Virus record (IMG/VR): IMGVR_UViG_3300029486_000002
Coordinates: 8,787-72,786 of that record
Source: a virus
Reading direction: 5' to 3' (one strand)
DNA: 64,000 bases
Numbering within the stretch: position 1 is the first letter of the stretch; each line of letters starts with the position of its first letter. A model generated the notes under the pieces. It was given only the letters and a program-made list of their open reading frames with translations, was not told the origin of the DNA and searched no databases. Position numbers and translations under genes: made by a program. Below are positions 5,367 through 61,692 of this stretch, piece after piece.

Positions 5367-5372
5367 GTTATG

Positions 5373-5435
5373 TTTTTGTGGAAATGTGGAAATGTGGAAG
5401 TGCAGAAATACATAAATACACATTTCCACAAAAAC
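5373..5435. repeat. long inverted repeat (hairpin) TTTTTGTGGAAATGTG...CACATTTCCACAAAAA with internal GTGGAAAT x3
   Basis: Perfect 16-nt arms read directly, immediately after the ligase stop. Confidence 0.5.
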
Positions 5436-5439
5436 ATAA

Positions 5440-5620
5440 AACAATAAACACACAAACACATCCATACACAAACACACACATAAATATATAAATACATATA
5501 TACATTAATAAACAAAGCAACTAACAAATTAATCAACTAACAAAGCAATACACATACAAATGCACTTATAAACAAATTAAGCAATAAATAAACAAATAAA
5601 TGTGCATGGATATTTGTTTG
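5440..5620. repeat. G-poor A/C-rich low-complexity repeat tract (ACAAACA / ATAAACAAA / CAACTAACAAA units) upstream of parA
   Basis: About 180 nt with almost no G on the top strand; CAACTAACAAA occurs twice, ATAAACAAA at least four times. Confidence 0.5.
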
Positions 5621-5630
5621 TTTCAATTAT

Positions 5631-5648
5631 AATTCTTAAATTTGCAAC
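5631..5648 (+). promoter_or_regulatory. promoter AATTCTTAAATTTGCAAC (-7 TAAATTTG) for parA
   Basis: An identical 18-mer recurs at 11603; a close variant at 38609; TTTG about 18 nt upstream. Confidence 0.5.
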
Positions 5649-5717
5649 GTATTACAGATTATACGTGTTCTGTATATTTGAATAGTATCATCAATTTTAA
5701 AATATACTTTATAGAAG

Positions 5718-6584
5718 ATGGAAAGACTTAGAGAAGTGCTTGCCTTTGTAAACCACAAAGGCGGTGTAGGAAAAACAACAACGGTGCAGAGTTTAGCGAC
5801 CGGATTGCGCCGTTTTGGTAAAGGAAAATTCGGAGTGGATGCCGATGGACGCAAACGCTTGCCGCGTATGCTCATTATCGACCTTGATCCGCAGGCGTGT
5901 GCCTCGTTCCTCTTCGGATGGAGCGAGACTCAGAACGCAGGTAAGCCTACCGTTTACGACGCATTGGTACAGCAAAGCAATTTGCCCGTTTATCAGGTAC
6001 GTGAGGGAATTTACCTCGCGCCAGCTGCGTCGCAGCTTATATCCATAGAACCGTTTCTGAATCAGCGGGCATTGCCTCGCAAAGCCCTTTGTAAATTGCT
6101 CGCCAAGCCACTGAACGAGTTAGCAGGCACCGAACTGGCAGACGGAGGCGTGAACACCGTTATGGATGCTTTCGACTACGTGCTTATAGACTGCCCACCG
6201 GCTATGTCGTTGCTTACATACAATGCTCTCACAGCCGCTACGAGTGTAGTGCTGCCCGTGCAGCTCGAAGTGTTGGCAACAAAAGGTATTGCCGAAATCA
6301 TCAACGCCATCGAGGAAACACGTGAGGATCTTAATCCCGATCTTGACATTCGTGGCTTGCTGATGGTAATGAGCAACGACCAGACCAACGCCACAAAGGA
6401 GTTTAAGGCATATCTCGGCGAAAAGTATCAGGACTATATGTTTGACGCTTATACGCGCCGCGACACGAAGATGGTCGAAGCGCAAGCTATGCGAGAAGAC
6501 ATCTTTGCTTATGCACCGTATTGCAGGGTAGGGCAGGACTATGAGCGTTTTACCAAGGAGATAATCAACAGTTTCACTTTTTAA
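5718..6584 (+). CDS. parA: ParA/Soj-family partition ATPase
   Basis: Deviant Walker A NHKGGVGKTTT; LIIDLDPQA; VLIDCPP; 288 aa. Confidence 0.85.
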   Translation: MERLREVLAFVNHKGGVGKTTTVQSLATGLRRFGKGKFGVDADGRKRLPRMLIIDLDPQACASFLFGWSETQNAGKPTVYDALVQQSNLPVYQVREGIYLAPAASQLISIEPFLNQRALPRKALCKLLAKPLNELAGTELADGGVNTVMDAFDYVLIDCPPAMSLLTYNALTAATSVVLPVQLEVLATKGIAEIINAIEETREDLNPDLDIRGLLMVMSNDQTNATKEFKAYLGEKYQDYMFDAYTRRDTKMVEAQAMREDIFAYAPYCRVGQDYERFTKEIINSFTF

Positions 6585-6595
6585 TATTATAGGGT

Positions 6596-7051
6596 ATGGC
6601 AAGAGAAATGAAGAAACGAGTTGCGCATTTTGGTCTGGAAAATTCAGACGCTATAGACGAGAACGAGCGCATTTTGGAAGCAGGTAGACAGCAGCGTCAG
6701 GAGAACAGGGAGAAAAAGGGAAGTGGAGAAGCGGCAGCGAATACTGTCACTGCTTCGTCCGCAGAAGTTCCGGCGACTGAAAAGCCGACTGTTTCTACAA
6801 CAACGTCTGAGACCGAGACATCGACAACTATAACTCCTGTAGCAGATCAACCGGCAACCACATCATTCAGCAACGATATTGCTGCGAACATGCGTAAGCC
6901 GAAGGGTAAGAAGACCGAGAATGGCATCACCATATACGTGCCGATGGAGTATTACGAGCGTATCGCCTTGATGAAAATGCGCACTGGCGTGCCTATCAAG
7001 GATTTGGCGCTACAGGCTGTGATTGAGTTTTTGGACAGAAACAAAATGTAA
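6596..7051 (+). CDS. small partner of ParA with a C-terminal ribbon-helix-helix-like segment (ParG/CopG-like centromere-binding candidate)
   Basis: Immediately downstream of parA; the C-terminus ITIYVPMEYYERIALMKMRTGVPIKDLALQAVIEFL resembles RHH beta-alpha-alpha; the S/T-rich linker looks disordered. Confidence 0.5.
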   Translation: MAREMKKRVAHFGLENSDAIDENERILEAGRQQRQENREKKGSGEAAANTVTASSAEVPATEKPTVSTTTSETETSTTITPVADQPATTSFSNDIAANMRKPKGKKTENGITIYVPMEYYERIALMKMRTGVPIKDLALQAVIEFLDRNKM

Positions 7052-7204
7052 AATCTAAAGTCTGATGTACACCGATATGGACAACTTTGAAAAATGCGAG
7101 GCGATATTCAACGAGGACTTGTAATATGTAAGGTAAAATCCTACTAAAGTTTTTTACCTTAAAGTTTACGAAGTCACTACAAAAGTGTGCTGTTTTTGGT
7201 TTGT

Positions 7205-7292
7205 AATACCTACGGATTTGTTTACCAATACCTACGGATTTGTTTACTTAAACCTACGGATTTGTTTACCAACTCCTGCGTTTTTGTTTACC
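7205..7292 (+). repeat. four tandem 22-bp iterons (AATACCTACGGATTTGTTTACC; the fourth copy is a degenerate AACTCCTGCGTTTTTGTTTACC)
   Basis: Exact 22-bp period read directly: 7205, 7227, 7249, 7271. Confidence 0.8.
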
Positions 7293-7332
7293 TCACTGTA
7301 GGTAACTGATTGATAATCAATACGCTCAAAAA

Positions 7333-7415
7333 CCCTTAATATAATATAATTATAAACTATGGATTTTTCGTTTTGAAAGAATAAAAGAATAGTTTATGTT
7401 ACATTATATTAAGGG
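7333..7415. promoter_or_regulatory. AT-rich region bounded by the inverted repeat CCCTTAATATAAT...ATTATATTAAGGG (candidate DNA unwinding element of a theta-type origin)
   Basis: 13-nt perfect inverted arms flank about 57 nt of >80% AT, between the direct and the inverted iterons. Confidence 0.5.
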
Positions 7416-7475
7416 AAATTGGAGGAGTTGAAAATCAACGAGTTAGAGCATACGAAGTAAACAAATATATAGGAG

Positions 7476-7541
7476 TTGGTAAACAAAAACGTAGGTTTTG
7501 ATACATAAAAACGTAGGTTTAAGTACATAAAAACGTAGGTT
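7476..7541 (-). repeat. three tandem 22-bp iteron copies in inverted orientation (core AAAAACGTAGGTT) abutting the rep start codon
   Basis: Copies at 7478, 7498 and 7520; the reverse complement AACCTACGTTTTT matches the iteron core; the last copy ends at 7541 and the ATG is at 7542. Confidence 0.7.
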
Positions 7542-9134
7542 ATGGCAAAGAAAGCGAAAAAAGAAGACAATGAAGGCAAACTTCAACATGCCTTGAACGA
7601 ATTGCGCTGGATAAACACACCTGTCAACTATACATCATACGCTAAAAGCTATTCTCTCATACAACAGGACGTTATGCTGTTGGTAAGCGGACGACTGCAA
7701 GACCATTTTGCCAAGTTTCTTAACGAACATCGTTATTTAAGCAAGGAACGACCCAATGGAGGTATAACGAAAGAAGACCTGTTGAAGATGGGACCGATAC
7801 GTTTGCGCCTGGCTGACTTCGGTATAGACAGCAGCCATTATGACGAGTCGGTAAAGGTGATAAACCAAATGAAGAAGATAGAGTTTCATTTACCGCGTTT
7901 CGATCCAGAGACAGGACTTAGAAAAGGTGAGGACTATATGCCTATATTCAGCAAGATATTTATCCCGAAGAACTTCACATCACGAGAAGGAGAAGATTTC
8001 AACAATTCGGGAGACGGAGAAACAAAGATAGACGAGGACGGACAGGAAGTGCGCAAGTTCCGTCGTGACGGATATATCGAGGTTACAATAAACATTGAGG
8101 TGGCAAAAGCCGTGTTTGATATGGCAGACGGATATTTCAATCATCTTGAACGTATCGCCTATTTCTGCAATTCGGCTTACACGTCACGTCTTTATCTTCT
8201 GTTGATGAAGTACGCGAGCAGGGGGCAGATGCACCCTGCTATAGATTATCGTGAGCTGAAGGAAGCATTGGGTATGTTTAAGGTCGATGTGGAAAAAAGT
8301 GAACAACCCGCAAAGGTTGTCACTACTGAGAAATATCAAAAGTTCTCACAGTTCCGCAAACAGGTGTTGGACGTGGCACGTGGTGACATGGAGCGACTGT
8401 GCGAGGAAAACAAGATAGAGATAATGCTATCGTGCATTGACCCCGACAAAAAAGGCTATGAACCTATTTATAGGGGTAGCGCCAAACGAGGCAATCCTGA
8501 AAAAATCAAGTTTCATATTAAGCGCACACCGTTGGGCTTGGCGAGAGAATTGGAGTTGCATCGTGGTTCGTCAGAAAAACGTTTGTGCGCCAAGTTAATG
8601 TCATTATATCCTACGCTCGACGAAGAACGGCTCAAGGCGTTTGTTGCTGACGTTCCCGAAGACCTTTGGAACGACTTTAAGGCGTATGCCTATAATGGAG
8701 TGCCGAAAGCGGTAGAGCAACCGCATAGATGGAATGGCACGGTGGAGGATTTCGTGTTTTACATTATGGAGCAATGGATAAAACAGCATAGTGTGAAGCA
8801 TGAAGCCCAGCAGCAGACGTTTGCGTTTGTCAAAGCGGAGGAAGTGAAGCCGAAACCGGGCGAAAGAGAATGGCAGCAGCTTGTGGCTATGCTTGACGGC
8901 GAAACAGGCGAGTGGCTGGGTAGTGAGATGTCGGACTTGTTGAAAAAAGTGACGCTTGATGATTATGACGGCAAGACTGTCCGGATTATTGCGACTCAGA
9001 AACAGGTGGCAGACATGGAGAATCTGCTGGGTAATAATGTACTAAAAAATAAATTCAGCCAATTACTTGGTCATTGTTTTAAAGGTGACAAACGTAAAAA
9101 GGTTCGTTTGGATTATAATAAAATAAAAAAATAG
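7542..9134 (+). CDS. putative replication initiator (Rep) protein (530 aa)
   Basis: Sits immediately downstream of iterons, an AT-rich region and inverted iterons, the standard order for iteron-plasmid rep genes; I recognise no named motif, so the assignment is by context. Confidence 0.55.
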   Translation: MAKKAKKEDNEGKLQHALNELRWINTPVNYTSYAKSYSLIQQDVMLLVSGRLQDHFAKFLNEHRYLSKERPNGGITKEDLLKMGPIRLRLADFGIDSSHYDESVKVINQMKKIEFHLPRFDPETGLRKGEDYMPIFSKIFIPKNFTSREGEDFNNSGDGETKIDEDGQEVRKFRRDGYIEVTINIEVAKAVFDMADGYFNHLERIAYFCNSAYTSRLYLLLMKYASRGQMHPAIDYRELKEALGMFKVDVEKSEQPAKVVTTEKYQKFSQFRKQVLDVARGDMERLCEENKIEIMLSCIDPDKKGYEPIYRGSAKRGNPEKIKFHIKRTPLGLARELELHRGSSEKRLCAKLMSLYPTLDEERLKAFVADVPEDLWNDFKAYAYNGVPKAVEQPHRWNGTVEDFVFYIMEQWIKQHSVKHEAQQQTFAFVKAEEVKPKPGEREWQQLVAMLDGETGEWLGSEMSDLLKKVTLDDYDGKTVRIIATQKQVADMENLLGNNVLKNKFSQLLGHCFKGDKRKKVRLDYNKIKK

Positions 9135-9139
9135 TTTTA

Positions 9140-9177
9140 CACCGCTTACCCATTCCCAAAGGTAGGCGGTGTTTTTA
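9140..9177 (+). terminator. rho-independent terminator (CACCGCTTACC...GGTAGGCGGTG then TTTTT)
   Basis: 11-bp stem with one mismatch plus a T-run, directly after the rep stop. Confidence 0.6.
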
Positions 9178-13403: not shown

Positions 13404-16400
13404 ATGTTCTTTCATCCTATCATAAATCGTCTTGCCAACATCGACCTGCACCTTCTCGTGAAGCCCGCCAACGAGCAGCGCATCGAAGGTCAGACCGCAT
13501 GTTTCTGCCCTATCTGCCAAAAGGGACAGGACACGGATGTCGATGCCAAGCAGACACCCCACTTCATTATTTATGAAAATGAGCGAGGTGGACTTTCTTC
13601 GGGCGTGGGTGTTGAAGACAACCGAATGGCAGAGCATGGTACCGTGAAGTGGAAATGCACCCGCACGGGTAAGACCGGCTACGGAGCCATCGAGTTGTAC
13701 GCAGCCAAGATGAACCTTCCGCTGCACGGATATAGTCTTCAGCGCATCTGCCAAAGACTTGTAAGGGATGTGTATGGCGATACCGACGAGGTGCGGCGTG
13801 CCTTCCCTGAGGTGTTTGCCAAGATGGACTACCGTACTCAGGCACAGCAGACCATCGAGACATTCTCTTTCATGCCGAAGACCGACTTCTCGCCACAAGA
13901 GCTTGCAGCCCTTGGGTGTGAGGTGACGCTCGACAAAGGATTGCCTCGCTTCGGCTTTGGCAGTACGTTTACGCCCGACATGCTCAACAAGGACTTCCGC
14001 ATCTACTCTCTGTTGAGTGTCACGCTGCCCGACGTAATACGCGACGGTCAGCATGTGAGCGAGATTATCCACGGTACGCCGTGGAATCCGCTGTTCGTAT
14101 GCTTCGCCTCACAGGAGATAGGTCCGCAGAACTCTTACGGATGTTTCTTCCGTCCAGCAATGGCTGGGAGCGAACCGATAGTGTTCTCTACCGCCGAGGA
14201 GCACAGCGTGAGGAAGGTGAGCAAGTGGCTCATGGGCGACAACGTGTTCGTCTATGCAATGGATCAGCGCAAGAGCGACAACACCGCCGTACATGCAGCC
14301 ATCCTGAAGTTCGAGCCGACGGAGAAGTTTACCGAAGAAAAAGAAATCTGGGTAGAACGTGAAGACAAGAATGGCGTGGGGAAAGGAACATTTAAGCAAG
14401 AGAAGAAGAAGATTCCTACCGCCGAGATAAAAGCTCGCAACATCGTCTTTTGTCGTACACCCGAAGACGCATTGAGTGTGTATTATGCCATGCGTTCCTT
14501 GCGCCTTGATAAGGCGGAAGACCAACACTTCCAAGACTTTTGTTGGTATCACGTGGCGTTCTCCATCGGACGGAGAAACTTCTGGTATATAGAGCGCGGC
14601 GAGTGGAAGCGGGAGAATATTGACTTTAGCGGTGTGCAATATCAGAAGATGAACCGCTTTGCCGAGCACGTCATTATTCTATACCCTAACGACATTGCCT
14701 CACAGCGCGACTGCGGAGCTATATGCACCAAGTTCAGCTCATTGTATTATGCAATGCTGCCAGAAGGTTTCCGATCGCGCTATTGCCGACGCTGGCAATG
14801 GCTATATGGCTGCTCTCCCCGAAGCGTGCGCGATTATCTGCTGACGTACACCATGAACGCGGAGGAGAACTTCCAGTTCGACCATGACCTTCGCCTTCCG
14901 CTCTATTCCCGATTGCGTGTAGCCAGAAACACGGAACCTTTCGAGATAGAATATCCGCGTGACCCTCGAAGCGGAAAGCCAAAGCCACCTACCTGCAAGG
15001 TGTCGCCTACGCGATTGTGGCTCTTTATGGCCGCTCACGGATATTATCGCATGATAGACCCCGAGAGCACCGACCTCGTAGGACAGTATATCCACCTGAA
15101 TAAATGCTTTGTGGAATATATCGACGCAAAGAGTATTATCCAGGCAGCAAAGACAATGCTTTTGGAATATATAGAACAGACATGGCGGCATAGCGACAAC
15201 GAGCGGCGTTTGATGTCCGACTGTGCCAATATGGTGGATAAGACCTTCACGGAGAAGTCTGCCGGAGGTTTGCAGAGTATGGTGATTAATTTTGCCGATG
15301 CCTTCGATGCAAAGACGGAGTACTTCTACTTCAACAATGTGGCACTGAAGATAACGCCCGACAGCATCCGCACGGTGTCGTATGACGACATCAACTTCTT
15401 TATCCCCTCGCTTGCCAAGAAGCCGTATGACTTCACGATGCGGGTGTTCAAGACACCGTTCACCATCACCGAGCGTCAGGAATACCGCGATCGACTTGAA
15501 GCGATAGACAAGAAGGAGAAAATGCAGAATGAGGACGGGTCGCCAGTGTTCACCTACGACGAGATAAAGCAGATGCGTGGCGACCTTATGGAATGGGCGC
15601 AGACATATCGTTGGGATGTCAACTGGCAAGGACAGCAAGAAAAAGACCTTTGGCCTATTCTGCGCATAGTGCGCGGCTTCTCAAACACTCTTTGGGAGCG
15701 AGAACGAGACGTACAGCGTAGTAAAGAAGAACTTACTGAGGACGAGCGAGCTGTAATGAACGCCCATTTTGCCAATATGCTTTCGGGCATAGGCAGGCTT
15801 TGTTATCGTTCATGGGAAGGGATGCAGAACGTCTGTCCTTATCTTCTTGAGGATAATATCGCCGACGAGAAGCAAGCCTCTGGTGGTAGCGGTAAGTCGG
15901 TATTGGTAAACCTCGTGGTTGGTTCGGCTGTCAATGTGTTCAGTGTGGATATGAAAGACTTCCTTACCATTGTCGATGCAAAGTTCTGTCTTTCCGACTT
16001 GCTCACATATCCTGGCAAATATCGTGTAGTACACTGGGAGGACAAGCAGAAGAGCTTTCCGCTCAAATACTTCTACAACAAGATAACCAAAGGTACGAAG
16101 GTTGAAAAGAAATTTGGCGACCCCGTCAGTCTGAAGATGGAAGACTCACCGATGCACGTCATAACAAGCAACAGTCCGTTGAGCGACGACGACCCCTCTA
16201 CTATAGGTCGTTTTCCACTGGTTAGTTTCTCCGACCGTTTTGCTCGCGAGAATCCTCAAAAGCGACAGCCGGCACGATCACCATCCGACATTATGAAGCG
16301 TTTTGATACCGACCCCGCCAAATTGACCGATACCGACCGCAATCAGACCATATACCTTTGCGCCTTGGCAGTGCAGTTCTTGATGCACTACCACACCTTT

Positions 16401-17072
16401 GCCATTGCACCGCAAGGCAATGTGCGTCGCCGCCAGATGGTGCAGAAGCTCACCGAGAGCATTGTCCGCTACTTCGAGTGGTTCTTCTCTCGCAATGAGG
16501 TCTACGGTGTGCCGATATGTACGGACGATATGTTCAACGAGTTTATGCGCGATTGGGCTGATGCTTCCGAGGGTAAGAGCAAGGAGTATAGCCGTGCTAC
16601 CTTCAAGAAGAAGATATACGACTATTGCGAAAACATGTCGATAGCGTGCAATCCTAAGCATCTCTTCGAGAACGAGAGTGACAAGCAGCGCAAATGCTTT
16701 AAGCTCCAGGCATGGGTTACGCAGGAATACTTTACCGGTCGTGAGTGGGAGAATGACAATACCATCGAGCCGAAGTTTATCCGCTATATGCAGACCTCCA
16801 AGCATGTGTTCTTCTTCTTCCGTCCTGGCAAGGATGCGATACCGAAGGACTACCGCGAGCTAAAGCGCATAGCAAAGCAATATGCCGAGCAGCCCGACCC
16901 GCTGCCATACCGCGACGATGACGGCAATATCGTTCAACTCACTGATGAAGAGAAGGAACGTTGGGAGAACAACAAGACACGCAAGCAGGGTAGGCGTATG
17001 ACTCCATCTGTGGCAGCTACGACAGCTACGGCTGTTGTGCCGGATGTAAATGAGGAGAATATGCCGTTCTGA
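13404..17072 (+). CDS. DNA primase-helicase (N-terminal Zn-binding/primase-like region, C-terminal P-loop SF3-like helicase), 1222 aa
   Basis: CFCPICQKGQ Cys cluster near the N-terminus; the Walker A GGSGKS in SGGSGKSVLVNLVVGS around residue 830; typical of phage D5-like primase-helicases. Confidence 0.7.
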   Translation: MFFHPIINRLANIDLHLLVKPANEQRIEGQTACFCPICQKGQDTDVDAKQTPHFIIYENERGGLSSGVGVEDNRMAEHGTVKWKCTRTGKTGYGAIELYAAKMNLPLHGYSLQRICQRLVRDVYGDTDEVRRAFPEVFAKMDYRTQAQQTIETFSFMPKTDFSPQELAALGCEVTLDKGLPRFGFGSTFTPDMLNKDFRIYSLLSVTLPDVIRDGQHVSEIIHGTPWNPLFVCFASQEIGPQNSYGCFFRPAMAGSEPIVFSTAEEHSVRKVSKWLMGDNVFVYAMDQRKSDNTAVHAAILKFEPTEKFTEEKEIWVEREDKNGVGKGTFKQEKKKIPTAEIKARNIVFCRTPEDALSVYYAMRSLRLDKAEDQHFQDFCWYHVAFSIGRRNFWYIERGEWKRENIDFSGVQYQKMNRFAEHVIILYPNDIASQRDCGAICTKFSSLYYAMLPEGFRSRYCRRWQWLYGCSPRSVRDYLLTYTMNAEENFQFDHDLRLPLYSRLRVARNTEPFEIEYPRDPRSGKPKPPTCKVSPTRLWLFMAAHGYYRMIDPESTDLVGQYIHLNKCFVEYIDAKSIIQAAKTMLLEYIEQTWRHSDNERRLMSDCANMVDKTFTEKSAGGLQSMVINFADAFDAKTEYFYFNNVALKITPDSIRTVSYDDINFFIPSLAKKPYDFTMRVFKTPFTITERQEYRDRLEAIDKKEKMQNEDGSPVFTYDEIKQMRGDLMEWAQTYRWDVNWQGQQEKDLWPILRIVRGFSNTLWERERDVQRSKEELTEDERAVMNAHFANMLSGIGRLCYRSWEGMQNVCPYLLEDNIADEKQASGGSGKSVLVNLVVGSAVNVFSVDMKDFLTIVDAKFCLSDLLTYPGKYRVVHWEDKQKSFPLKYFYNKITKGTKVEKKFGDPVSLKMEDSPMHVITSNSPLSDDDPSTIGRFPLVSFSDRFARENPQKRQPARSPSDIMKRFDTDPAKLTDTDRNQTIYLCALAVQFLMHYHTFAIAPQGNVRRRQMVQKLTESIVRYFEWFFSRNEVYGVPICTDDMFNEFMRDWADASEGKSKEYSRATFKKKIYDYCENMSIACNPKHLFENESDKQRKCFKLQAWVTQEYFTGREWENDNTIEPKFIRYMQTSKHVFFFFRPGKDAIPKDYRELKRIAKQYAEQPDPLPYRDDDGNIVQLTDEEKERWENNKTRKQGRRMTPSVAATTATAVVPDVNEENMPF

Positions 17073-23984: not shown

Positions 23985-25976
23985 TTATCTTCCACTCGGC
24001 AGCACAAACCAACCGCCACCGCCACGGAAGAATTTGTAACCTAAATACAGAGTATCGAAGGCATCCGTGAAGTCGGTACGTTGCTGTAAGGGCAGTGTGT
24101 CCTCACTTTCTGGCTTCTTTTCGCCCGACTTATCCTTATGAAATCCTTTGTACGAAATCTGCACTTCGCAGAGCTGCATGGCTATGATAAGATCGGGGTT
24201 GTTTATTTGGTTAATACGGATGGCGGGGTAGGAGAGGTGAGCAAGACCGTCGTTAATGATTTGATGTTTCACCTCATGCTTTTCTGGCGCACCCATGTCT
24301 ATTGCTGTCACGTTCCAACCTCGTTTCTCCAGTTCTGCAATCACTATCATATAGAAGCGTTCGTCGCTCGAAGCGTACGAGGCTCCCTGCTTGGCAGTGG
24401 AATCGTAGAAATACGTCACGTCGCGGTTGATGGCTCGCTTCGGAGCGTAGTAGTCCGAAAAATCGGCAATTAGTTCGCGTAGTTTGCGCTCGTTCTTTAC
24501 GTAAAAACTCTTTATCACATTCAGACACTCCATGCCGTCACGCGCGTAGCCTTGTCCCACAACGAGTGTATTGATGTTAGCGTTATAGTCGAGAGCTATA
24601 TATAGAGGCAGGGAGTTGATGCAGTCGGAATCCATGCGGCAGTCGTTGCGCTCGGCGAGTTCCTGGAAGTCGGGTTGGTAACTCTCGCTTGTGATGCGTT
24701 TGCCGTTGATGATGCCACTTACCTTTTGTGTGCTAAAATTCGCCTGATTAAGAACATCATCATCTGGGATATAACCGTGAACATGATCAATGTCGAGGTT
24801 GGAATAAAAGCCATCGTTCGATTTCTGTATCTTGACGTTAAGAATTGAGACCGCGAAGGTGTATGGCGGAAGGTCACGCTTCATCTGACGAATATAGTCT
24901 TCGCCCAAAATATCCACATTGTCGAGCGATGACGCACGGCGCACGCAGAAAGCCACACGGCGCAGCTCACGCAGATAACCATCAGTGAACTTCTTTGAGC
25001 GCAGAAACATCTGCATCTCGAAATCTTCTTCTGGCGTGATAAGATACTCATAATCGTAAATTAGTTCGGCATCGTCCTGTGGAATGAGTTTATAGTTGAC
25101 AGCCATCTCCACCATGCCCTTTGTGACGTGTTGGCCATGGTTGGGCATTATCTTGAACTGTCCCTCATGCTTCATCATCTTCAGAGCCACGGCACGGATC
25201 ATCGTGCGCAAATCCTTCGGCACCACATGTACTGAGTGCCCCGTCTTCTTGGCGTTATACAGCAGGTCGTTGTAGCGTATCACCTTATTTGCATAATCCT
25301 CCAACTGCTTCTGCACCCATCGGTAAGTCTTGCCCTTGAACGGACCCGTCTCTACGGTCAGGTCCAGTTTCTCCTCCTCTTTCTCCAGCCACGAACCTTT
25401 GGCAGTGAGCGAGGCATCCGAGAGAAAGCGTGTTGATTTATACATCGGGTTGTGGTCAGAGAAGTTGATGTCGCCCAGCGGATGCGTCTGACCTGAAAGA
25501 GCCGGCATCAATTCGTCTGTTACTTTCTTATACGGGAAGAATCTCGCCTCGTCGCCCACCATTGCCGAGAACGTGTAGGAGTTGGCAGAGGCAGTCTGCG
25601 AGAGAGAAATAAGAACCCATCCGGCACCATTCGCCAGCCAAATGTAGTTGTCGTAGTTCTTAGGTTTGAAGATACTCTCGCGAGCATGTTTCGGTGGTCG
25701 TCCCCACCCAAAGTGAATGCCCTGCGTAAAGCCGAACATACGCTCCATAGCCGCCATCGTACTCGGTATGGTCTTGCCGAAGCCCTGTTGACGCGACACA
25801 GCCACCCATGCGCCGAGCATACCAGGCATAGAGTTGCTTGCCGTCCAGACGTAAGGAGCCACCAAACCATCGGTCTTACCCACACGGCGGGCAGCAATCA
25901 CTCGCTCGTCTTTGGCTCCCATGTATAGCGACTGCTGCTGGAACTTAGTTAAGTAAATATTATGTGCTTGCTGCAT
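23985..25976 (-). CDS. terL: terminase large subunit
   Basis: Walker A RRVGKTDG; Walker B ...MVGDEARFF; C-terminal nuclease-like LDYNANINTLVV and FYDSTAKQG; 663 aa. Confidence 0.8.
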   Translation of the reverse strand: MQQAHNIYLTKFQQQSLYMGAKDERVIAARRVGKTDGLVAPYVWTASNSMPGMLGAWVAVSRQQGFGKTIPSTMAAMERMFGFTQGIHFGWGRPPKHARESIFKPKNYDNYIWLANGAGWVLISLSQTASANSYTFSAMVGDEARFFPYKKVTDELMPALSGQTHPLGDINFSDHNPMYKSTRFLSDASLTAKGSWLEKEEEKLDLTVETGPFKGKTYRWVQKQLEDYANKVIRYNDLLYNAKKTGHSVHVVPKDLRTMIRAVALKMMKHEGQFKIMPNHGQHVTKGMVEMAVNYKLIPQDDAELIYDYEYLITPEEDFEMQMFLRSKKFTDGYLRELRRVAFCVRRASSLDNVDILGEDYIRQMKRDLPPYTFAVSILNVKIQKSNDGFYSNLDIDHVHGYIPDDDVLNQANFSTQKVSGIINGKRITSESYQPDFQELAERNDCRMDSDCINSLPLYIALDYNANINTLVVGQGYARDGMECLNVIKSFYVKNERKLRELIADFSDYYAPKRAINRDVTYFYDSTAKQGASYASSDERFYMIVIAELEKRGWNVTAIDMGAPEKHEVKHQIINDGLAHLSYPAIRINQINNPDLIIAMQLCEVQISYKGFHKDKSGEKKPESEDTLPLQQRTDFTDAFDTLYLGYKFFRGGGGWFVLPSGR

Positions 25977-26905: not shown

Positions 26906-28117
26906 TTACGATTCCTCTCCAAAGTCTATTTTAAGCTGTTGGAACCTCTCGGCATACCATTGTCTGTACGATTTGCCCGAAATCCACCAGTCGTAGATGT
27001 TTTCCGCTATTTCGTTTTCCTGCTCCTCTGTCAAGCGGTCAGAAGAGGAGCTGGACGAAAACCCGTGCATTGCAAGAGACCATATTCCCGTGTTTCGCCT
27101 CTTGTTTCCGTTTTTGTCCCCAGTCGGATTGTTTGTAGAATCGAGCTGGATCCAATGTTCCGGGTCGGGATGCTTGATGTAGCCGCCTGCGTCCTGAGCA
27201 ATCCTCTGACGTTTCTGAGAGGCATCCAGTCCTTGTGGATGTTCCACCAGATGTATTCTTTTTTGAATACCCCCCCGTTTCGGATGGCCTTAATCGCCTT
27301 AATCCAGTTTCTCTTTACATGTGGATAGCGTTCGTTTTCTATCATCTTTTGCTTATGCGAACTCATTGGACAGCCGATGCAACCTATGCGGTGCCAGCCT
27401 TCGTCGTAGAGCGAGCAATGCGGAACTTTCACAACATCATTAAGAAATTCCCATACGTCTTGCTCGGTCCAATAGATAATGGGCGAAATCAGTAGACTCT
27501 CTTTGCCGTGGATGCAGCCTAACGTCTGCTCCTCGTCGGCATTGGTGATGTTCACTCCGTCCTCTCTTGACTTTCGCCTTATGCGTTTCGCCTTCTGCTC
27601 TTGTCTATACTCTTCAAGACCATCGAGGTTGCCGCTAAACTTTCGATTGTTTATCTCCACTTCGTTGCGCTTTGCCCGGCGCGAACTCTCTGCCTTACGT
27701 ATGCCGATAAGCGTAACCTTGCCAGCACCTGCCGTTTCCTTGTATTCAGCGCAGCACCAACGCACACGCATCGTCGGCAATATCTGTCTTTCTACGGCAC
27801 TTTGAAAGATGGATTTACCAGGCTTGTTTAGTTCCACCTCGGGATAGTTTTTCTTCACGAAGCGTATCACTTCGGGCGGGTCAACGCTCGTAAGATTCAT
27901 GTGACCTTGAAACCTTACCCCCCGCTAACTGTGCGATATGGTAGAGAGCCTGAGAATCTTTGCCGCCGCTAAACGCCACAAAATAACCTTGCTCGGCATC
28001 ATAGTTCAGAGCTATCTTCTCTGCTTTTTGCAGTAGCTCCACCGAGTGAAGCATTTTCTTTCGCAATCGTGCCGAAGCACGGTTTAAGGCTTCGGCAAGC
28101 GTAATTTTTATATTCAT
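26906..28117 (-). CDS. PAPS-reductase-family (PP-loop ATP pyrophosphatase-like) protein, interrupted by two apparent frameshifts
   Basis: PP-loop SGGKDS in ORF 27881-28117; the Cys motif HRIGCIGCP in ORF 27031-27900; a plausible C-terminus in ORF 26906-27247; the frame changes coincide with a C-run near 27918-27923 and a C-run/T-run near 27258-27276. Confidence 0.6.
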
Positions 28118-38661: not shown

Positions 38662-39741
38662 ATGTTTGACGAGATATGCTCTATATATTCTGATGCGCTC
38701 GACAATGTAGGTCGGTATGTAGACCGTGAAACTGGTGAGTGCATTCAGCAAATGACTATCCGCGAGTTCTGCCTTACGGATCGTTGGAAACCCTATGTGC
38801 AGCACCTCCGCGCTATGCGCAAAGAGTATGGCAGTAAGGCGAAGAAAATGCAGGAGTACATCGACACTAAGAAGCATTTGCCAGGAGCTACATTGAGTGG
38901 CTTGTTCAGCATCTACGACGATGAGTGCATGCGTAAGGATGGGTCGAAGTTTATAGCTCCAGTCTCGCGTCGAGAAACTCATCTGAAGCAACACACTGGT
39001 TGGCTCGCCATCGACATAGACCTTGCGGACAACGCCCATCTGAGCAATTTTGAAAATGTGCGCTTCGCTTGCGGTTATCGTCCTGAAATAGCCTTGCTGA
39101 TGCGGTCGTGCTCCGGCAGCGGATATTTCGGTTTAGTAAAACTGGCTTATCCTGAACGGCACAAAGACCAGTTCAAAGCTCTACTCAAAGATTATGCAGC
39201 TATCGGCATTACGCTTGACAAGGCTTGCAGCAATATCGGACGTGTGCGTTTCGCTTCATGGGATGATTCTGAGCACATATATATAAATAAAAATGTGGTG
39301 CCGTATAAGGGACTGGAAGGTGAGCAAGCTCAGCTTGTCTCTTTGGCTTCACGCCAAGCGTATCGCTCGCACAATGCGAATGTAGAGTATAAAGCCGAAG
39401 GCAACTCTAACTTCTGGGAACAGCAGCGTGTGCAAGACAGATTGGTCGAGCTTATTGTGCAGGAACTTGTGGGCAACCATCGGAATATTACCGAGAGTTA
39501 TGACGACTGGGTGAAAGCGGGATGGGCATTGCGATCACATCCGTATGGTTTTGACTTATTCCACCAACTATCAAGATGCAGCTCCAAATATAATGAAGCG
39601 CAGACAAACCTGAAATGGCAGCAGTTGGGAAGCAGTCAGACCGTGACGTACAACTATCTCATTCATGCTTGTAAGGTGGCATTGGGAGAGGAAACATATC
39701 GTCAGATTTGTAGGCGAGTTTGGAGTGAGCTGAAGGAGTAA
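38662..39741 (+). CDS. hypothetical protein with a primase-like / VirE-N-like acidic motif
   Basis: WLAIDIDLAD (h-h-D-h-D) resembles primase-polymerase catalytic motifs; 359 aa; assignment weak. Confidence 0.4.
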   Translation: MFDEICSIYSDALDNVGRYVDRETGECIQQMTIREFCLTDRWKPYVQHLRAMRKEYGSKAKKMQEYIDTKKHLPGATLSGLFSIYDDECMRKDGSKFIAPVSRRETHLKQHTGWLAIDIDLADNAHLSNFENVRFACGYRPEIALLMRSCSGSGYFGLVKLAYPERHKDQFKALLKDYAAIGITLDKACSNIGRVRFASWDDSEHIYINKNVVPYKGLEGEQAQLVSLASRQAYRSHNANVEYKAEGNSNFWEQQRVQDRLVELIVQELVGNHRNITESYDDWVKAGWALRSHPYGFDLFHQLSRCSSKYNEAQTNLKWQQLGSSQTVTYNYLIHACKVALGEETYRQICRRVWSELKE

Positions 39742-40432: not shown

Positions 40433-41329
40433 ATGAAATTCATCGAACCACAAGTGGAATGGTGGCGCCAGACATCTCTTCCACGACATATAGCAAGAGT
40501 GGGCAGAATATGCTACAAGGCTAAGGGCAAGCAGCCCGAAGAAGGAATAACCGAAGAGAAAGTGGAAGCGTTCATTCAGAAGCGTGACGAAGAACGCTGC
40601 AAGGGGTTCTGGGAAAGCGGACACCGCTCGATGTATCGCCACGGCACAATATACTTTTTCATGCCCAACGAAAAGGGTCTTCCTAACTACATTTGGGCGT
40701 ATCTGAACGCTTCTCCCTACATCGACTATGCCACAAAGAACCATAAGGTATGGATCAGCACTAATATGCAGTTCATGCTTGAGAACAAAAACCTGATGGA
40801 CGCGCTTAGTCCGTATGGTATCAGCGAAGAAAAGTTTATTGAGAAGGCTCAGAAGTACGAGTGTGAGGAAGCATTCTCCATTATCCGAATGACGCTGGTA
40901 GTGACTACACAGATAAGCACATCGCGCGAGCTCAACCGCACATCGCCCAACAGCATAGCCGAGCAGAGCACACGCTATTGCAATCTGGAGAAGAAGGGTG
41001 GCGTACAGATAGCACGTCCGCATTGGTATTTTTATGGCACTCGTTGGCAGCGTATGGTGTATCGTTTTGTATGCCGAGTATGCGAGTGGGGCTACAACCG
41101 ACTTCTGAAGTCTGGATTGAAGCCGGAGGATGCACGAGGCGTTCTGCCTCTTGATACCTATACTGTTGTGGCATATACATACACGATTGCCGACTGGAAG
41201 CATATTCTTGACCTTCGTTATCATGGCAAGACCGGCACACCGCATCCTAATGCAAAAATTCTTGGCGAGAAAATACGCTACATCATCATTGTGCGTATGC
41301 GCCAGTATTGTGAGAAGTTTGACATTTAA
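40433..41329 (+). CDS. thyX: flavin-dependent thymidylate synthase ThyX-like
   Basis: ARGVLPLDTYTVVAYTYTIADWKHILDLRYHGKTGTPHPNAKILGEKI aligns with ThyX [46 protein letters not shown]; the STRY (SxRY) element is present but the RHR triplet is degenerate (NRT). Confidence 0.55.
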   Translation: MKFIEPQVEWWRQTSLPRHIARVGRICYKAKGKQPEEGITEEKVEAFIQKRDEERCKGFWESGHRSMYRHGTIYFFMPNEKGLPNYIWAYLNASPYIDYATKNHKVWISTNMQFMLENKNLMDALSPYGISEEKFIEKAQKYECEEAFSIIRMTLVVTTQISTSRELNRTSPNSIAEQSTRYCNLEKKGGVQIARPHWYFYGTRWQRMVYRFVCRVCEWGYNRLLKSGLKPEDARGVLPLDTYTVVAYTYTIADWKHILDLRYHGKTGTPHPNAKILGEKIRYIIIVRMRQYCEKFDI

Positions 41330-44166: not shown

Positions 44167-44240
44167 AGCGGAGTGGTAGCAGTTGGTAGCTCACTTGGTT
44201 CATACCCAAGAGGTCGAAGGTTCGAGCCCTTCCTCCGCAA
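44167..44240 (+). tRNA. tRNA-Met (anticodon CAT; could alternatively be a lysidine-modified Ile2)
   Basis: Anticodon arm CTTGG-TTCATAC-CCAAG; T arm GAAGG-TTCGAGC-CCTTC; acceptor 6 bp + A1.A72 mismatch; 74 nt; D-arm pairing is weak. Confidence 0.7.
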
Positions 44241-44301
44241 CATGGTCAGTCGGTAACAAGATTGATTTTTCAGGATAACAACACAAAACACATTTTTACT
44301 A

Positions 44302-48390: not shown

Positions 48391-49320
48391 ATGGAATTAA
48401 GACATTTACGCTCCTTTGTTTATGTCGCCGAAACAAAGTCGTTTAGTACGGCTACCACACGTTGTTGCGTCACCCAGTCGGCGGTAAGCCAGCACATTCG
48501 CGCCCTGGAGGACGAGTTGGGTTGCAAACTGCTTATCCGCACTTCGCACGGCATTATGCTCACTGAAAGCGGCGAAGCCCTGTTGCCTCGTGCCAAAGAA
48601 ATACTGAAGCAGACCGAGGACTGCAAAGAGCAAATCAATGCCCTTAACAACTGCATGACCGGCGAATTGCGCATAGGCGTAGGTTCTTTTATTGCTCCGT
48701 ATGTCCGTATGGCAGCATTGATATTTATGGAGAGATACCCCAACGTGCGTATCAATGCCGAGTTCACCAAAGCATATATTCTTAACCAATCGCTAAGGGC
48801 GCACATGTTAGACCTTGCTTTCACTATGAATATGGCTTACAGCCACGAGGGAATAGAGACTACACCCTGCATACCCTTTAATGTGTATGCTATCATGCGC
48901 GATACCCATCCGCTTGCCTCACTTCCAAAGGTGTCGTATGAAGACATTCTGAAGCACCCTATCATTATGCCCGACGTAGGCGAACGTGCGATTGAGACCT
49001 TTCAAAAAAACATTCAGCGCGACCTATACAAACTCAACATCAAGTGTATCATCAGCGACCCCGACGAAGCCCTTGCTTCGGTGGAAGAAACCAAGTACGT
49101 CACCTTCATGCCTAAGCTCTACCTGCGCAACCACCCTACCCTTGTAGCGCGTCCCGTTGTCGGACTCGAACAACAGTTGATGAGCAACGCCCACTGGATG
49201 CAGGACGTACCCAAGAAGCGAGCCGCACAATTATTTCTTGACATCATCCGCGACGAAGTGGTGCCATACATTTCCGTAGCCGAAGATTCGCAAGGGAAGT
49301 TCACACCGCATCCCCGATAG
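48391..49320 (+). CDS. LysR-family transcriptional regulator
   Basis: N-terminal HTH LRHLRSFVYVAETKSFSTATTRCCVTQSAVSQHIRALEDELGCKLLIR; 309 aa with a substrate-binding-domain-like C-terminus. Confidence 0.85.
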   Translation: MELRHLRSFVYVAETKSFSTATTRCCVTQSAVSQHIRALEDELGCKLLIRTSHGIMLTESGEALLPRAKEILKQTEDCKEQINALNNCMTGELRIGVGSFIAPYVRMAALIFMERYPNVRINAEFTKAYILNQSLRAHMLDLAFTMNMAYSHEGIETTPCIPFNVYAIMRDTHPLASLPKVSYEDILKHPIIMPDVGERAIETFQKNIQRDLYKLNIKCIISDPDEALASVEETKYVTFMPKLYLRNHPTLVARPVVGLEQQLMSNAHWMQDVPKKRAAQLFLDIIRDEVVPYISVAEDSQGKFTPHPR

Positions 49321-61672: not shown

Positions 61673-61692
61673 CCAATAAAAACCAATAGACA

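What the first reader, a model, noticed from the sequence alone, without database searches (positions are those of the whole stretch)
5370..9134. Plasmid-type partition and replication cassette inside a tailed-phage genome (phage-plasmid lifestyle)
The cassette runs, in plasmid order: a G-poor repeat tract; parA (deviant Walker A KGGVGKTT); a small RHH-like partner; four exact 22-bp iterons; an AT-rich inverted repeat; three inverted iterons touching the ATG of a 530-aa Rep candidate; and a terminator. This is the architecture of iteron-controlled theta replicons with type Ib partition, yet the same contig encodes terminase, capsid, protease and tape measure. The window also holds a CI-like HTH repressor and no integrase. 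Together these point to an extrachromosomal (plasmid) prophage state.
Basis: partly seen in the sequence, partly recalled or inferred. Interest (0 to 1): 0.75.

Follow-up and report, generated by a model that had tools for sequence, protein, structure and literature searches.

The report
Plasmid replicon-partition cassette in Prevotella phage
A roughly 90-kb tailed phage of gut Prevotella, with no integrase, carries a complete plasmid-style maintenance unit (iteron origin with Rep initiator, ParA with a small DNA-binding partner and a repeat array), so it most likely persists in its host as a low-copy plasmid, a known lifestyle that I found no report of for this host group.

Summary
The cassette is real. 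parA (5718-6584) has the deviant Walker A motif. The 530-aa protein (7542-9134) is a two-winged-helix iteron initiator: its best fold matches are R6K pi and mini-F RepE, and its N-terminal 330 aa are about 32% identical to Rep proteins of Segatella plasmids. The origin is two inverted arms of four 22-bp-spaced iterons around an 83% A+T core. The iterons are not all exact, and there are four inverted copies, not three. The G-poor tract is 29 phased 8-bp units built like the TP228 parH centromere. The small protein's ribbon-helix-helix fold has only marginal support.

Comparison across about 65 distinct relatives gives the strongest evidence. Iteron sequence switches with Rep class. The 8-bp unit switches with the small protein's C-terminal domain. 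Its N-terminus switches with ParA.

No integrase was found in the window or in a complete 86-kb relative. Maps are circular. None of the contigs listed or sized (more than 150) exceeds 110 kb. The host is Prevotella/Segatella, not Bacteroides.

Plasmid-prophage maintenance is the best reading (about 0.75) but is inferred, not shown. This is a new member of a known kind. Modular shuffling of specificity classes, and conserved foreign iterons in each origin, add interest.

The parts
5368..5439 (+). Perfect 21-bp inverted repeat just after the ligase stop codon. It is a candidate terminator of the upstream gene and also forms the left edge of the repeat array.
   Evidence: I8, 100% complementary. 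RNA fold -31.5 kcal/mol, z = -7.8.
5377..5608 (.). Array of 29 phased 8-bp units (TAMAYAAA: a yACA-type box plus an A-rich spacer). Candidate centromere/operator for the small RHH-like protein.
   Evidence: Lag-8 autocorrelation 0.625 against 0.366, z = 9. Unit type covaries with the C-terminal domain of the small protein in 59 of 59 distinct loci, including 8 recombinants. Same build as TP228 parH-OF (PMC3130281).
5637..5648 (+). Bacteroidota-type promoter motif TAAATTTGCAAC, 70 bp upstream of parA.
   Evidence: Pattern TAnnTTTGnAAC occurs 5 times on the + strand against 0.59 expected, each time ahead of a gene block. Assigning it as the Bacteroidota -7 element rests on general knowledge.
5718..6584 (+). 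parA: a 288-aa deviant Walker-A partition ATPase with no N-terminal HTH domain.
   Evidence: Pfam AAA_31 3.5e-36 and CbiA 1.3e-12. Closest solved structures are Soj 1WCV at 1e-26, pSM19035 delta, and ParF. KGGVGKTT at aa 14-21.
6596..7051 (+). Small partner protein of 151 aa. It has an N-terminal helical segment, a disordered T/S/P/E-rich linker, and a C-terminal strand-helix-helix (RHH-like) domain.
   Evidence: AlphaFold model. A family profile hits only the RHH protein ORF56 of pRN1, E = 0.0013. Sub-threshold RHH_3, RHH_1 and Omega_Repress hits occur in relatives. The N-terminus covaries with the ParA class and the C-terminus with the repeat unit.
7052..7106 (+). Relic of the 3' end of a roughly 170-188-aa ORF. 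Many relatives carry the intact ORF between the small gene and rep.
   Evidence: Near-identical to the end of the intact ORF in L045 and L043. The ORF is called in L217-L228. No Pfam match.
7129..7160 (.). Conserved hairpin AAGGTAAAATCCTACTAAAGTTTTTTACCTT. It matches the unit that serves as the cognate iteron in another Rep class of the family.
   Evidence: I11; -15.2 kcal/mol, z = -4.
7170..7192 (+). Single copy of a foreign (class B) iteron, GAAGTCACTACAAAAGTGTGCTG.
   Evidence: In class-B relatives this sequence forms the 4+4 iteron arrays. At least 90% conserved at 21 of 23 positions across 31 distinct class-A origins.
7206..7293 (+). Left iteron arm: four direct repeats at 22-bp spacing, core CCTACGGATTTGTTTAC.
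7294..7456 (.). A+T-rich spacer and candidate unwinding region. It includes the invariant palindrome TGATAATCA (7311-7319) and an imperfect inverted repeat.
   Evidence: 72% A+T overall and 83% in 7330-7412, against 53% for the window. Inverted repeat I5. The palindrome is 100% conserved in 31 origins.
7454..7541 (-). Right iteron arm: four inverted copies at 22-bp spacing. The last one abuts the rep ATG, which makes it a probable autoregulation site.
   Evidence: The autoregulation role is an inference from the position.
7542..9134 (+). rep: a 530-aa initiator. It has an N-terminal two-winged-helix iteron-binding module (about aa 20-335) and a family-specific C-terminal domain of about 200 aa.
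   Evidence: A family profile hits R6K pi (2NRA) at E = 5e-6. Foldseek top hits are pi (E = 3.9e-7, TM 0.63), RepE54 and the 8AAN Rep complex. About 32% identical to Segatella plasmid Reps. Pfam Rep3_N is below its cut-off.
9139..9177 (+). Intrinsic-terminator-like hairpin (12-bp stem, 10-nt loop) followed by a U-run.
   Evidence: -19.6 kcal/mol, z = -5.0. The consensus scanner missed it because its loop limit is 8 nt.

Best explanation
Positions 5368-9177 are the plasmid-mode maintenance module of a temperate, integrase-less siphovirus-type phage of Prevotella/Segatella. The phage genome is about 85-109 kb with a circular map.

Replication. Rep monomers bind the eight 22-bp-spaced iterons, arranged as two inverted arms. 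They open the 83% A+T core between the arms and recruit a helicase for theta replication. The arm that abuts the rep start codon also makes Rep repress its own gene.

Partition. This is a type Ib-like system. The small protein binds the phased 8-bp array next to the par promoter through its C-terminal RHH-like domain. Its N-terminal segment engages the Walker-type ParA, which positions plasmid copies for segregation. The same binding probably autoregulates the operon.

Lytic growth. The phage's own primase/helicase-like proteins, clamp and ligase presumably serve lytic replication.

Shown here: the protein families and folds, the repeat architecture, cognate covariation between protein and DNA, the absence of an integrase, circular maps, and the size ceiling on contigs.

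Inferred: DNA binding, origin firing, segregation, autoregulation, and the plasmid-prophage state itself.
For: Rep.
- Profile hit to R6K pi at E = 5e-6.
- Predicted fold matches pi, RepE and Rep-iteron complexes.
- Homology to Rep genes on four Segatella/Prevotella plasmids.
- S. copri DSM 18205 plasmid NZ_CP085934 has parA, a small ORF, seven 22-bp-spaced iterons abutting the ATG plus inverted copies upstream, then rep.
- The iteron core occurs 6 times against 0.13 expected, only in the origin.
- Across the family, the iteron sequence changes with the Rep class while the architecture stays the same. Classes A, B and C match perfectly, and at least four further classes each have their own repeats.

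Partition.
- ParA family assignment.
- 8-bp periodic array with z = 9, present upstream of parA in all alleles and, in some, on both sides of the promoter.
- Array type follows the C-terminal domain of the small protein: 37 of 37 and 22 of 22, including 8 recombinant loci where ParA class and RHH type disagree.
- The N-terminus follows the ParA class.
- The array has the same build as TP228 parH-OF, whose tetramer boxes sit every 8 bp and are coated by RHH ParG (PMC3130281).

Lifestyle.
- Terminase, protease, tape measure and tail-fibre genes are on the same replicon.
- No integrase in the window or in the rest of an 86-kb relative.
- Contig ends join in relatives, which indicates a circular map.
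- All contigs listed with lengths in IMG/VR, GTDB and metagenome scans are at most 109 kb.
- In exact-protein look-ups, 0 of about 115 collection blocks has a contig over 200 kb.
- A whole-element-sized contig (94.5 kb) is binned in a Prevotella MAG.
- Different Rep classes co-occur in the same samples.
- Free recombination of par and rep specificity modules is what incompatibility pressure on plasmids would produce.
Against: - There is no direct evidence of plasmid carriage. All sequences come from metagenomes or MAGs. No copy-number, isolate, Hi-C or induction data were available.
- A virulent phage would also appear as separate circular contigs of about 90 kb.
- The window Rep scores below Pfam's Rep3_N cut-off (18.1 against 22.4 bits).
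- The RHH fold is supported only marginally (best E = 0.0013; Foldseek found nothing significant).
- No DnaA box lies in the origin.
- No clear repressor/antirepressor switch was identified.
- A few carrier contigs of 115-147 kb are on record and could not be inspected.
- The covariation counts are not phylogenetically independent.
Confidence: 0.75

Rival explanations
1. The phage is essentially lytic, or only forms a transient carrier state. In this reading the Rep-iteron origin is its ordinary early (theta) replication origin, like lambda O/ori. ParA and its partner only distribute replicating genomes or manipulate the host, and there is no stable plasmid prophage.
For: - The phage encodes its own primase-like (38662-39741), D5-like (13404-17072), clamp and ligase functions.
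- Rep carries a C-terminal domain of about 200 aa that stays with the phage backbone when the DNA-binding half is swapped. This fits recruitment of a phage-encoded partner.
- No convincing CI/Cro switch was found.
- The metagenomic contig pattern cannot distinguish the two lifestyles.
Against: - A full type Ib-like partition operon with a long centromere-like array is conserved in all relatives, with cognate covariation. It has no obvious use in a purely lytic cycle.
- The cassette is homologous in proteins and layout to that of bona fide Segatella plasmids.
- Diversification into many rep/par specificity classes resembles incompatibility-driven evolution.
- The element is binned with Prevotella MAGs.
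Confidence: 0.15
2. The element is mainly a Prevotella plasmid that carries a defective or domesticated phage gene set (cryptic prophage or GTA-like). It would no longer be an infectious phage.
For: - The replicon and partition genes are plasmid-type and related to Segatella plasmids.
- It carries cargo-like genes: a LysR regulator, SPFH, PAPS reductase, ThyX and methyltransferases.
Against: - A complete and syntenic set of packaging, head, tail and tail-fibre genes is conserved over hundreds of contigs at 45-100% protein identity.
- The sequences are catalogued as viral genomes (IMG/VR; 'Siphoviridae sp. ctMOb8').
- No conjugation or mobilisation genes were seen.
Confidence: 0.06
3. The phage integrates using an unrecognised recombinase. 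In this reading the cassette is an inert plasmid fragment picked up by recombination.
For: - Many ORFs have no family match, so a novel recombinase cannot be excluded.
- A few contigs of 115-147 kb exist that were not inspected.
Against: - The cassette is intact and under clear constraint. Iterons, the palindrome and the arrays are conserved, and proteins covary with their DNA sites.
- No contig over 200 kb and no flanking chromosomal genes were seen in any locus.
- Circular joins occur at arbitrary or repeat positions rather than at one att site.
Confidence: 0.03

Closest known systems
TP228 parFGH (type Ib partition: ParF ATPase, RHH protein ParG, parH-OF centromere/operator)
   Same: - A small Walker-type ParA without an HTH domain, followed by a small protein with a flexible N-terminal part and a C-terminal strand-helix-helix domain.
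- A long array of short boxes every 8 bp, lying upstream of and around the operon promoter.
- In TP228 there are 20 ACTC boxes separated by 4-bp AT spacers, each bound by one ParG dimer (PMC3130281).
   Different: - No detectable sequence similarity between the small protein and ParG.
- The small protein is twice as long, with a low-complexity linker of about 50 aa.
- The box sequence differs (yACA, or TAC-type in other alleles).
- The array is longer: 29 units here and up to about 75 in relatives.
- ParA is 288 aa and closer to Soj than to ParF.
Rep_3-type iteron initiators (R6K pi, mini-F RepE, pPS10 RepA)
   Same: - Two-winged-helix fold, and a profile hit to pi.
- 22-bp-spaced iterons next to an A+T-rich region.
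- Iterons overlapping the start of rep, which suggests autoregulation.
   Different: - Only 12-15% identity to the solved proteins. The Pfam score is below the curated cut-off.
- The iterons form two inverted four-copy arms flanking the A+T-rich core.
- No DnaA box.
- An extra C-terminal domain of about 200 aa.
Segatella copri DSM 18205 plasmid unnamed2 (NZ_CP085934) and other Segatella/Prevotella plasmids
   Same: - Closest natural relatives of the cassette. Rep is 29-32% identical over aa 8-334 and ParA is 40% identical.
- The order parA, small ORF, iterons, rep is the same.
- The iterons are 22-bp-spaced, abut the rep ATG, and have inverted copies upstream.
   Different: - These are 59-317-kb plasmids carrying metabolic genes and no phage genes.
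- Their Rep lacks the phage-type C-terminal domain.
- The iteron sequence differs (GGTAAAYAnnnnnGTGGTTTT).
Classical phage-plasmids (P1, with RepA/iterons and ParAB-parS; also N15 and SSU5 types)
   Same: A tailed phage without an integrase that carries a plasmid replicon and an active partition system, alongside separate lytic replication functions.
   Different: - No sequence relationship: Rep has no tblastn hit in 50,697 phage records.
- Partition is type Ib-like, not P1's type Ia.
- The host phylum is Bacteroidota.
- Plasmid carriage has not been demonstrated.
Earlier suggestions of episomal gut Bacteroidota phages: the RepA-like, integrase-less branch of 'Quimbyviridae' (PMC8008677) and the crAssphage phage-plasmid proposal (PMC10983915)
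   Same: Gut Bacteroidota phages for which a plasmid-like state is inferred from a Rep-like gene and the absence of an integrase.
   Different: Here a full iteron origin and a partition operon with its centromere-like array are identified and supported by covariation. No relationship to those phage groups was tested.
Siphoviridae sp. ctMOb8 (UniProt A0A8S5Q035, 'DNA replication protein')
   Same: Its Rep is 98% identical. This phage type is therefore already deposited as an uncultivated viral genome with an automatic annotation.
   Different: I found no description of the replicon, the partition system or the lifestyle in the searchable literature.

Membership tests
Rep_3 / two-winged-helix iteron initiators (pi, RepE, RepA) | Sequence match to Pfam Rep3_N/Rep3_C at the curated threshold | tested here: not met
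   Rep3_N scores 18.1 bits against a cut-off of 22.4 (E = 0.0038). Rep3_C has E = 0.081. Some relatives at 40-44% identity carry precomputed PF01051/PF21205 hits.
Rep_3 / two-winged-helix iteron initiators (pi, RepE, RepA) | Profile-level or fold-level similarity to solved WH1-WH2 initiators | tested here: met
   A 41-sequence profile hits R6K pi 2NRA at E = 5.3e-6. For the model (pLDDT 75), the top 30 Foldseek hits are all pi, RepE or Rep-iteron complexes. The best is E = 3.9e-7 with TM 0.63.
Rep_3 / two-winged-helix iteron initiators (pi, RepE, RepA) | Tandem iterons of about 17-22 bp next to an A+T-rich region and the rep gene | tested here: met
   4+4 copies at 22-bp spacing around an 83% A+T core, abutting the ATG.
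Rep_3 / two-winged-helix iteron initiators (pi, RepE, RepA) | Iterons are the cognate binding sites of this Rep | tested here: inconclusive
   There is no binding assay. Comparative support is strong: the iteron sequence switches with the Rep class in every one of about 65 distinct loci.
Rep_3 / two-winged-helix iteron initiators (pi, RepE, RepA) | DnaA box(es) in the origin (common in this class but not universal) | tested here: not met
   No TTATCCACA with up to 1 mismatch lies between 7052 and 7541.
Rep_3 / two-winged-helix iteron initiators (pi, RepE, RepA) | Supports autonomous replication | not testable with these tools
   Requires cloning into a suicide vector and transfer to Segatella/Prevotella.
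Type Ib plasmid partition systems (ParF/ParG, delta/omega) | Small deviant Walker-A ParA without an N-terminal DNA-binding domain | tested here: met
   KGGVGKTT starts at residue 14. The protein is 288 aa. AAA_31 matches at 3.5e-36, and Soj, delta and ParF are the closest solved relatives.
Type Ib plasmid partition systems (ParF/ParG, delta/omega) | Centromere-binding protein with a ribbon-helix-helix fold | tested here: inconclusive
   - The model shows an extended segment plus two helices at aa 110-148.
- The only PDB profile hit is the RHH protein ORF56, E = 0.0013.
- RHH_3, RHH_1 and Omega_Repress hits appear in 8 of 48 relatives, all below threshold.
- Foldseek and Pfam on the window protein find nothing.
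Type Ib plasmid partition systems (ParF/ParG, delta/omega) | Centromere of multiple short repeats upstream of the operon, doubling as the operator | tested here: met
   29 phased 8-bp units end 29 bp before the promoter motif. In other alleles the array surrounds the promoter.
Type Ib plasmid partition systems (ParF/ParG, delta/omega) | The partner protein links the centromere (one domain) to ParA (the other domain) | tested here: inconclusive
   Only comparative evidence is available. The C-terminal type tracks the repeat unit (59 of 59, Fisher 1e-16, with 8 recombinants). The N-terminal type tracks the ParA class.
Phage-plasmids | Phage packaging and virion genes and plasmid rep/par genes on one replicon | tested here: met
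Phage-plasmids | No integration module | tested here: met
   No recombinase family hit among the larger window ORFs, or among the larger ORFs of the 26 kb that complete relative contig 108496. A novel recombinase cannot be excluded.
Phage-plasmids | Maintained as an extrachromosomal replicon in lysogens | not testable with these tools
   Only indirect evidence is available:
- Circular maps.
- No carrier contig over 200 kb.
- All listed contigs are at most 109 kb.
- A 94.5-kb contig is binned in a Prevotella MAG.
Phage-plasmids | Relatedness to a described phage-plasmid group (P1, N15, SSU5 and others) | tested here: not met
   No megablast or tblastn match of the cassette or Rep in the phage collection. 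No match of the phage in PLSDB.

The most novel reading that the evidence does not exclude
This is an abundant family of Prevotella phage-plasmids in which replication and partition specificities are combinatorially shuffled. At least 7 Rep/iteron classes, at least 3 RHH/centromere classes and 3 ParA classes occur on one backbone.

Each origin also deliberately keeps single or paired copies of rival classes' iterons. The window (class A) holds one class-B iteron at 7170-7192 and a class-D-type unit at 7129-7160. Class-B origins hold an inverted pair of class-A iterons.

In the most novel reading, these foreign iterons are functional. They would act as decoys or handcuffing sites that titrate a competitor's initiator and so impose incompatibility on co-infecting relatives. 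Alternatively they would sense such relatives. They would not be recombination scars.
Probability: 0.15. Interest if true: 0.8.

Novelty: new member of a known kind. Interest (0 to 1): 0.55.

Why it matters
- Prevotella/Segatella copri is a dominant and hard-to-manipulate gut genus, with few genetic tools and few characterised phages.
- A widespread, integrase-less phage family that appears to persist as a plasmid would change how 'temperate' and 'virulent' are scored in gut viromes. Integrase-based classifiers would call this phage lytic.
- It would explain why phage-sized contigs are binned with Prevotella MAGs.
- It would supply a compact, well-delimited replicon-plus-partition module (about 3.8 kb, in several compatible specificity classes) for building shuttle vectors for Segatella.
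- The natural shuffling of Rep/iteron and RHH/centromere pairs is also a ready-made dataset for studying DNA-recognition specificity and plasmid incompatibility.

Tried and rejected
- Megablast of the cassette and of 25 kb of the phage against phage and plasmid collections found no relevant match. The only hit was a 57-bp tRNA-like match.
- An exact look-up of the window Rep found nothing on record.
- Terminal direct repeats were sought in four contigs whose two ends I held. None were found, and the simple junction test failed. Mapping the ends separately showed that the contigs break inside the repeat arrays.
- SPFH homologues on 295-412-kb IMG/VR contigs looked like possible integrated copies, but they share only that one gene.
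- Foldseek on the small-protein model gave nothing significant; the top hit was the MatP RHH region at E = 2.6.
- Pfam on the small protein and on 10 C-terminal variants gave nothing.
- The sigma-70 promoter and terminator scan was no better than shuffles and missed the real hairpin.
- No DnaA boxes lie in the origin.
- Rfam found only the tRNA.
- No family match for the extra ORF or for nine neighbouring ORFs.
- Six literature searches found no description of a Prevotella/Segatella phage-plasmid.
- The look-up of NCBI-sourced carriers did not reveal whether any is an isolate genome.
- Bacteroides as host was considered and rejected. All host signals point to Prevotella/Segatella.

Full report
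OBSERVATION

Upstream of parA lies a G-poor tract. It is not merely low-complexity: positions 5377-5608 read as 29 consecutive 8-bp units with consensus TAMAYAAA. The lag-8 match fraction is 0.625 against 0.366 ± 0.028 in shuffles (z = 9), and it stays elevated at lags 16 and 24. The tract begins inside a perfect 21-bp inverted repeat that follows the stop codon of an NAD-dependent DNA ligase gene. It ends 29 bp before the motif TAAATTTGCAAC. The pattern TAnnTTTGnAAC occurs five times on the + strand of the window, each time ahead of a gene block, against 0.59 expected. From general knowledge this is the Bacteroidota -7 promoter element.

parA (5718-6584) matches AAA_31 at 3.5e-36 and carries KGGVGKTT at residues 14-21. 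Its nearest solved relatives are Soj, pSM19035 delta and ParF.

The origin region holds four direct 22-bp-spaced iterons (7206-7293) and four inverted ones (7454-7541). The last inverted copy touches the rep ATG. The two arms flank a 163-bp stretch that is 72% A+T overall and 83% in its core. Only the 17-nt core CCTACGGATTTGTTTAC is exact, and only in three copies. The inverted arm has four copies, not three. The core with up to 3 mismatches occurs six times in 64 kb, all in the origin, against 0.13 expected.

A 12-bp-stem hairpin followed by a U-run follows rep.

WHAT THE PROTEINS ARE

The 530-aa protein scores below Pfam's cut-off for Rep3_N (E = 0.0038). Four other results establish what it is:
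- Its first 334 residues are 29-32% identical to annotated replication initiators on four Segatella/Prevotella plasmids.
- A 41-sequence profile of its family hits the R6K pi protein (2NRA) at E = 5e-6.
- For its AlphaFold model (pLDDT 75), the thirty best PDB matches are pi, mini-F RepE54 and Rep-iteron/DUE complexes. The best has E = 3.9e-7 and TM 0.63.
- Some relatives at about 40% identity carry precomputed Rep_3 Pfam hits.

It is therefore a two-winged-helix iteron initiator with an additional C-terminal domain of about 200 aa.

The 151-aa protein has no Pfam match. Its model shows confident N-terminal helices, a disordered linker of about 50 aa, and a C-terminal extended segment followed by two helices. 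A profile of 48 cluster representatives hits a single PDB protein, the RHH protein ORF56 of plasmid pRN1, over the whole domain at E = 0.0013. The commonest Pfam hits among the relatives are RHH_3, RHH_1 and Omega_Repress, all sub-threshold. Foldseek found nothing significant. I treat the RHH fold as probable, not established.

COMPARATIVE EVIDENCE

Scans of IMG/VR, GTDB genomes and metagenome contigs returned about 150 related loci, giving 65 distinct complete cassettes. Gene order (ligase, parA, small gene, origin, rep) is conserved, but the modules are mosaic:
- ParA falls into three classes: at least 88%, 70-88% and about 44% identity to the window protein.
- Rep falls into at least seven classes.
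- These classes occur in many combinations.

Three covariations follow.

(i) Iteron sequence changes with Rep class while the architecture is kept: two inverted arms, 22-bp spacing, the last copy at the ATG.
- Class A uses CCTACGGATTTGTTTAC.
- Class B uses GAAGTCACTACAAAAGTGTGCC.
- Class C uses AGGTAAAAAACATTATGACC.
- Further classes have their own repeats.
- The S. copri plasmid NZ_CP085934 has the same design with yet another iteron.

(ii) The 8-bp array is present upstream of parA in every allele examined among the phage relatives. In some alleles it lies on both sides of the promoter motif. Its unit type follows the C-terminal domain of the small protein. All 37 loci with the GIT[IV]YV strand have ACA-type units. 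All 22 loci with GIV[VI][ND]V or SVKVTI have TAC-type units. These include seven loci that combine window-type ParA with the other RHH type, and one locus with the converse combination (Fisher 1e-16; the counts are not phylogenetically independent).

(iii) The N-terminal segment of the small protein follows the ParA class.

Together these results indicate a two-domain adaptor: the C-terminus on the repeats and the N-terminus on ParA. This is the logic of type Ib partition. The array itself is built like TP228 parH-OF, where 20 tetramer boxes are spaced by 4-bp AT spacers and each is bound by one RHH ParG dimer (PMC3130281).

THE ELEMENT AND ITS HOST

The window encodes:
- a large terminase (23985-25976, minus strand; 30% identical to an annotated phage terminase);
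- an S49 head protease and a 2264-aa tape measure;
- a sliding clamp, a PriCT-type primase-like protein and a D5-like protein;
- ThyX, methyltransferases and a LysR regulator.

The 26 kb that complete a close 85.9-kb relative encode tail-fibre and structural proteins, methylases and an HTH protein. No recombinase family was hit in the window or in that remainder.

Contig ends of independent assemblies join when mapped on relatives. One 89.8-kb contig starts in one iteron arm and ends in the other. The map is therefore circular, and assemblies tend to break in the repeats.

All contigs listed with lengths are at most 109 kb. In exact-protein look-ups, none of about 115 collection blocks has a contig over 200 kb. 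A few carriers of 115-147 kb are on record and could not be inspected.

Four host signals agree on Prevotella/Segatella:
- the plasmid homologues;
- two Prevotella MAGs, one with a 94.5-kb contig;
- source names of identical proteins;
- the promoter motif.

Different Rep classes co-occur in six samples, in three of them at similar coverage.

MECHANISM AND CONFIDENCE

I conclude that this is the plasmid-mode replicon and type Ib-like partition system of an integrase-less temperate phage, that is, a phage-plasmid. My confidence is about 0.75.

The family and fold assignments, the repeat architecture and the covariations are shown. DNA binding, origin firing, autoregulation through the ATG-proximal arm, segregation, and the extrachromosomal prophage state are inferred.

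The main rival (0.15) is a lytic or carrier-state phage that uses Rep and the iterons as its ordinary origin. Metagenomic contigs cannot exclude it.

COMPARISON AND NOVELTY

The cassette works like a mini-F/R6K-type iteron replicon joined to a TP228-type partition system. Its closest natural relatives are Segatella plasmids. As a lifestyle it parallels P1, but it is unrelated in sequence, and no match was found in 50,697 phage or 72,556 plasmid records.

A Rep 98% identical is already deposited as 'DNA replication protein' of the uncultivated Siphoviridae sp. ctMOb8. Episomal replication has been suggested for other gut Bacteroidota phages (PMC8008677; PMC10983915). I found no description of a Prevotella/Segatella phage-plasmid.

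This is therefore a new member of a known kind.

AN UNEXPLAINED EXTRA

Left of its own iteron array, every origin keeps single or paired copies of iterons that are the working arrays of other Rep classes.

The window has a class-D-type unit, present as a conserved hairpin (7129-7160), and one class-B iteron (7170-7192). That iteron is at least 90% conserved at 21 of 23 positions in 31 distinct class-A origins, while neighbouring positions vary. Class-B origins carry an inverted pair of class-A iterons. Classes E, F and G carry mixtures.

Repeated module swaps that leave scars are the simple explanation. However, the reciprocal A-in-B and B-in-A pattern, together with the conservation, leaves room for functional cross-class sites that impose incompatibility on rivals. 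I give that reading a probability of about 0.15.

Noticed in passing
window 7129-7192; L038, L041, L125, L126, L131 origin regions: Each origin carries conserved copies of other Rep classes' iterons to the left of its own array. The window holds one class-B iteron and a class-D-type hairpin. Class-B origins hold an inverted pair of class-A iterons. It is unresolved whether these are recombination scars or functional cross-class sites.
   Followed up: partly
window 8545-9134 (Rep aa ~335-530): The C-terminal ~200 aa of Rep show no detectable similarity to the Segatella plasmid Reps. They are retained (73% identity over aa 404-530) in class-C Reps whose N-terminal halves show no detectable sequence similarity to the window's. 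The last ~90 aa (helix-helix-strand-strand-helix-strand) gave a weak fold hit to DnaA domain I (4TPS_D, E = 0.27). This may be a helicase- or replisome-recruiting domain.
   Followed up: partly
window 7052-7106; L217 2476-3042: The window keeps only the 3' end of a ~170-188-aa ORF that sits between the small par gene and rep in many relatives. The intact ORF has no Pfam match.
   Followed up: partly
L010, L012, L014, L022, L024, L058-L060: Short-read assemblies of this phage family frequently break exactly in the iteron arms or in the 8-bp array. As a result, complete circles are reported as linear contigs without terminal repeats.
   Followed up: yes
window 642, 5637, 11609, 38615, 49460 (+ strand): The motif TAnnTTTGnAAC (Bacteroidota promoter-like) occurs five times against 0.59 expected. 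Each copy lies just upstream of a gene block, and three copies sit within a longer shared ~31-nt sequence.
   Followed up: partly
window 48391-49320: A full-length LysR-family regulator (HTH_1 plus LysR_substrate) lies among the head genes of the phage. Other cargo-like genes are SPFH/Band 7 (62412-63314), PAPS reductase (27031-27900, minus strand) and ThyX (40433-41329).
   Followed up: no
window 60047-62034: About 2 kb without any ORF of 90 aa or more on the + strand, in an otherwise densely coding + strand genome.
   Followed up: no
L234-L280 (metagenome contigs): Class-A and class-B Rep variants co-occur in six samples. In three of them the coverage is similar, for example ERZ1034992 at 117x and 102x. 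This is compatible with co-residence of compatible classes.
   Followed up: partly
L082, L085, L087, L089: SPFH homologues (65-70% identity) lie on IMG/VR contigs of 295-412 kb. These contigs share only that gene with the window, so they are unrelated elements.
   Followed up: yes
window 44167-44241: A tRNA-Met (CAT) gene lies just upstream of the head protease gene. An 89.5% match of 57 bp to Ochrobactrum phage POI1126 falls on it.
   Followed up: no
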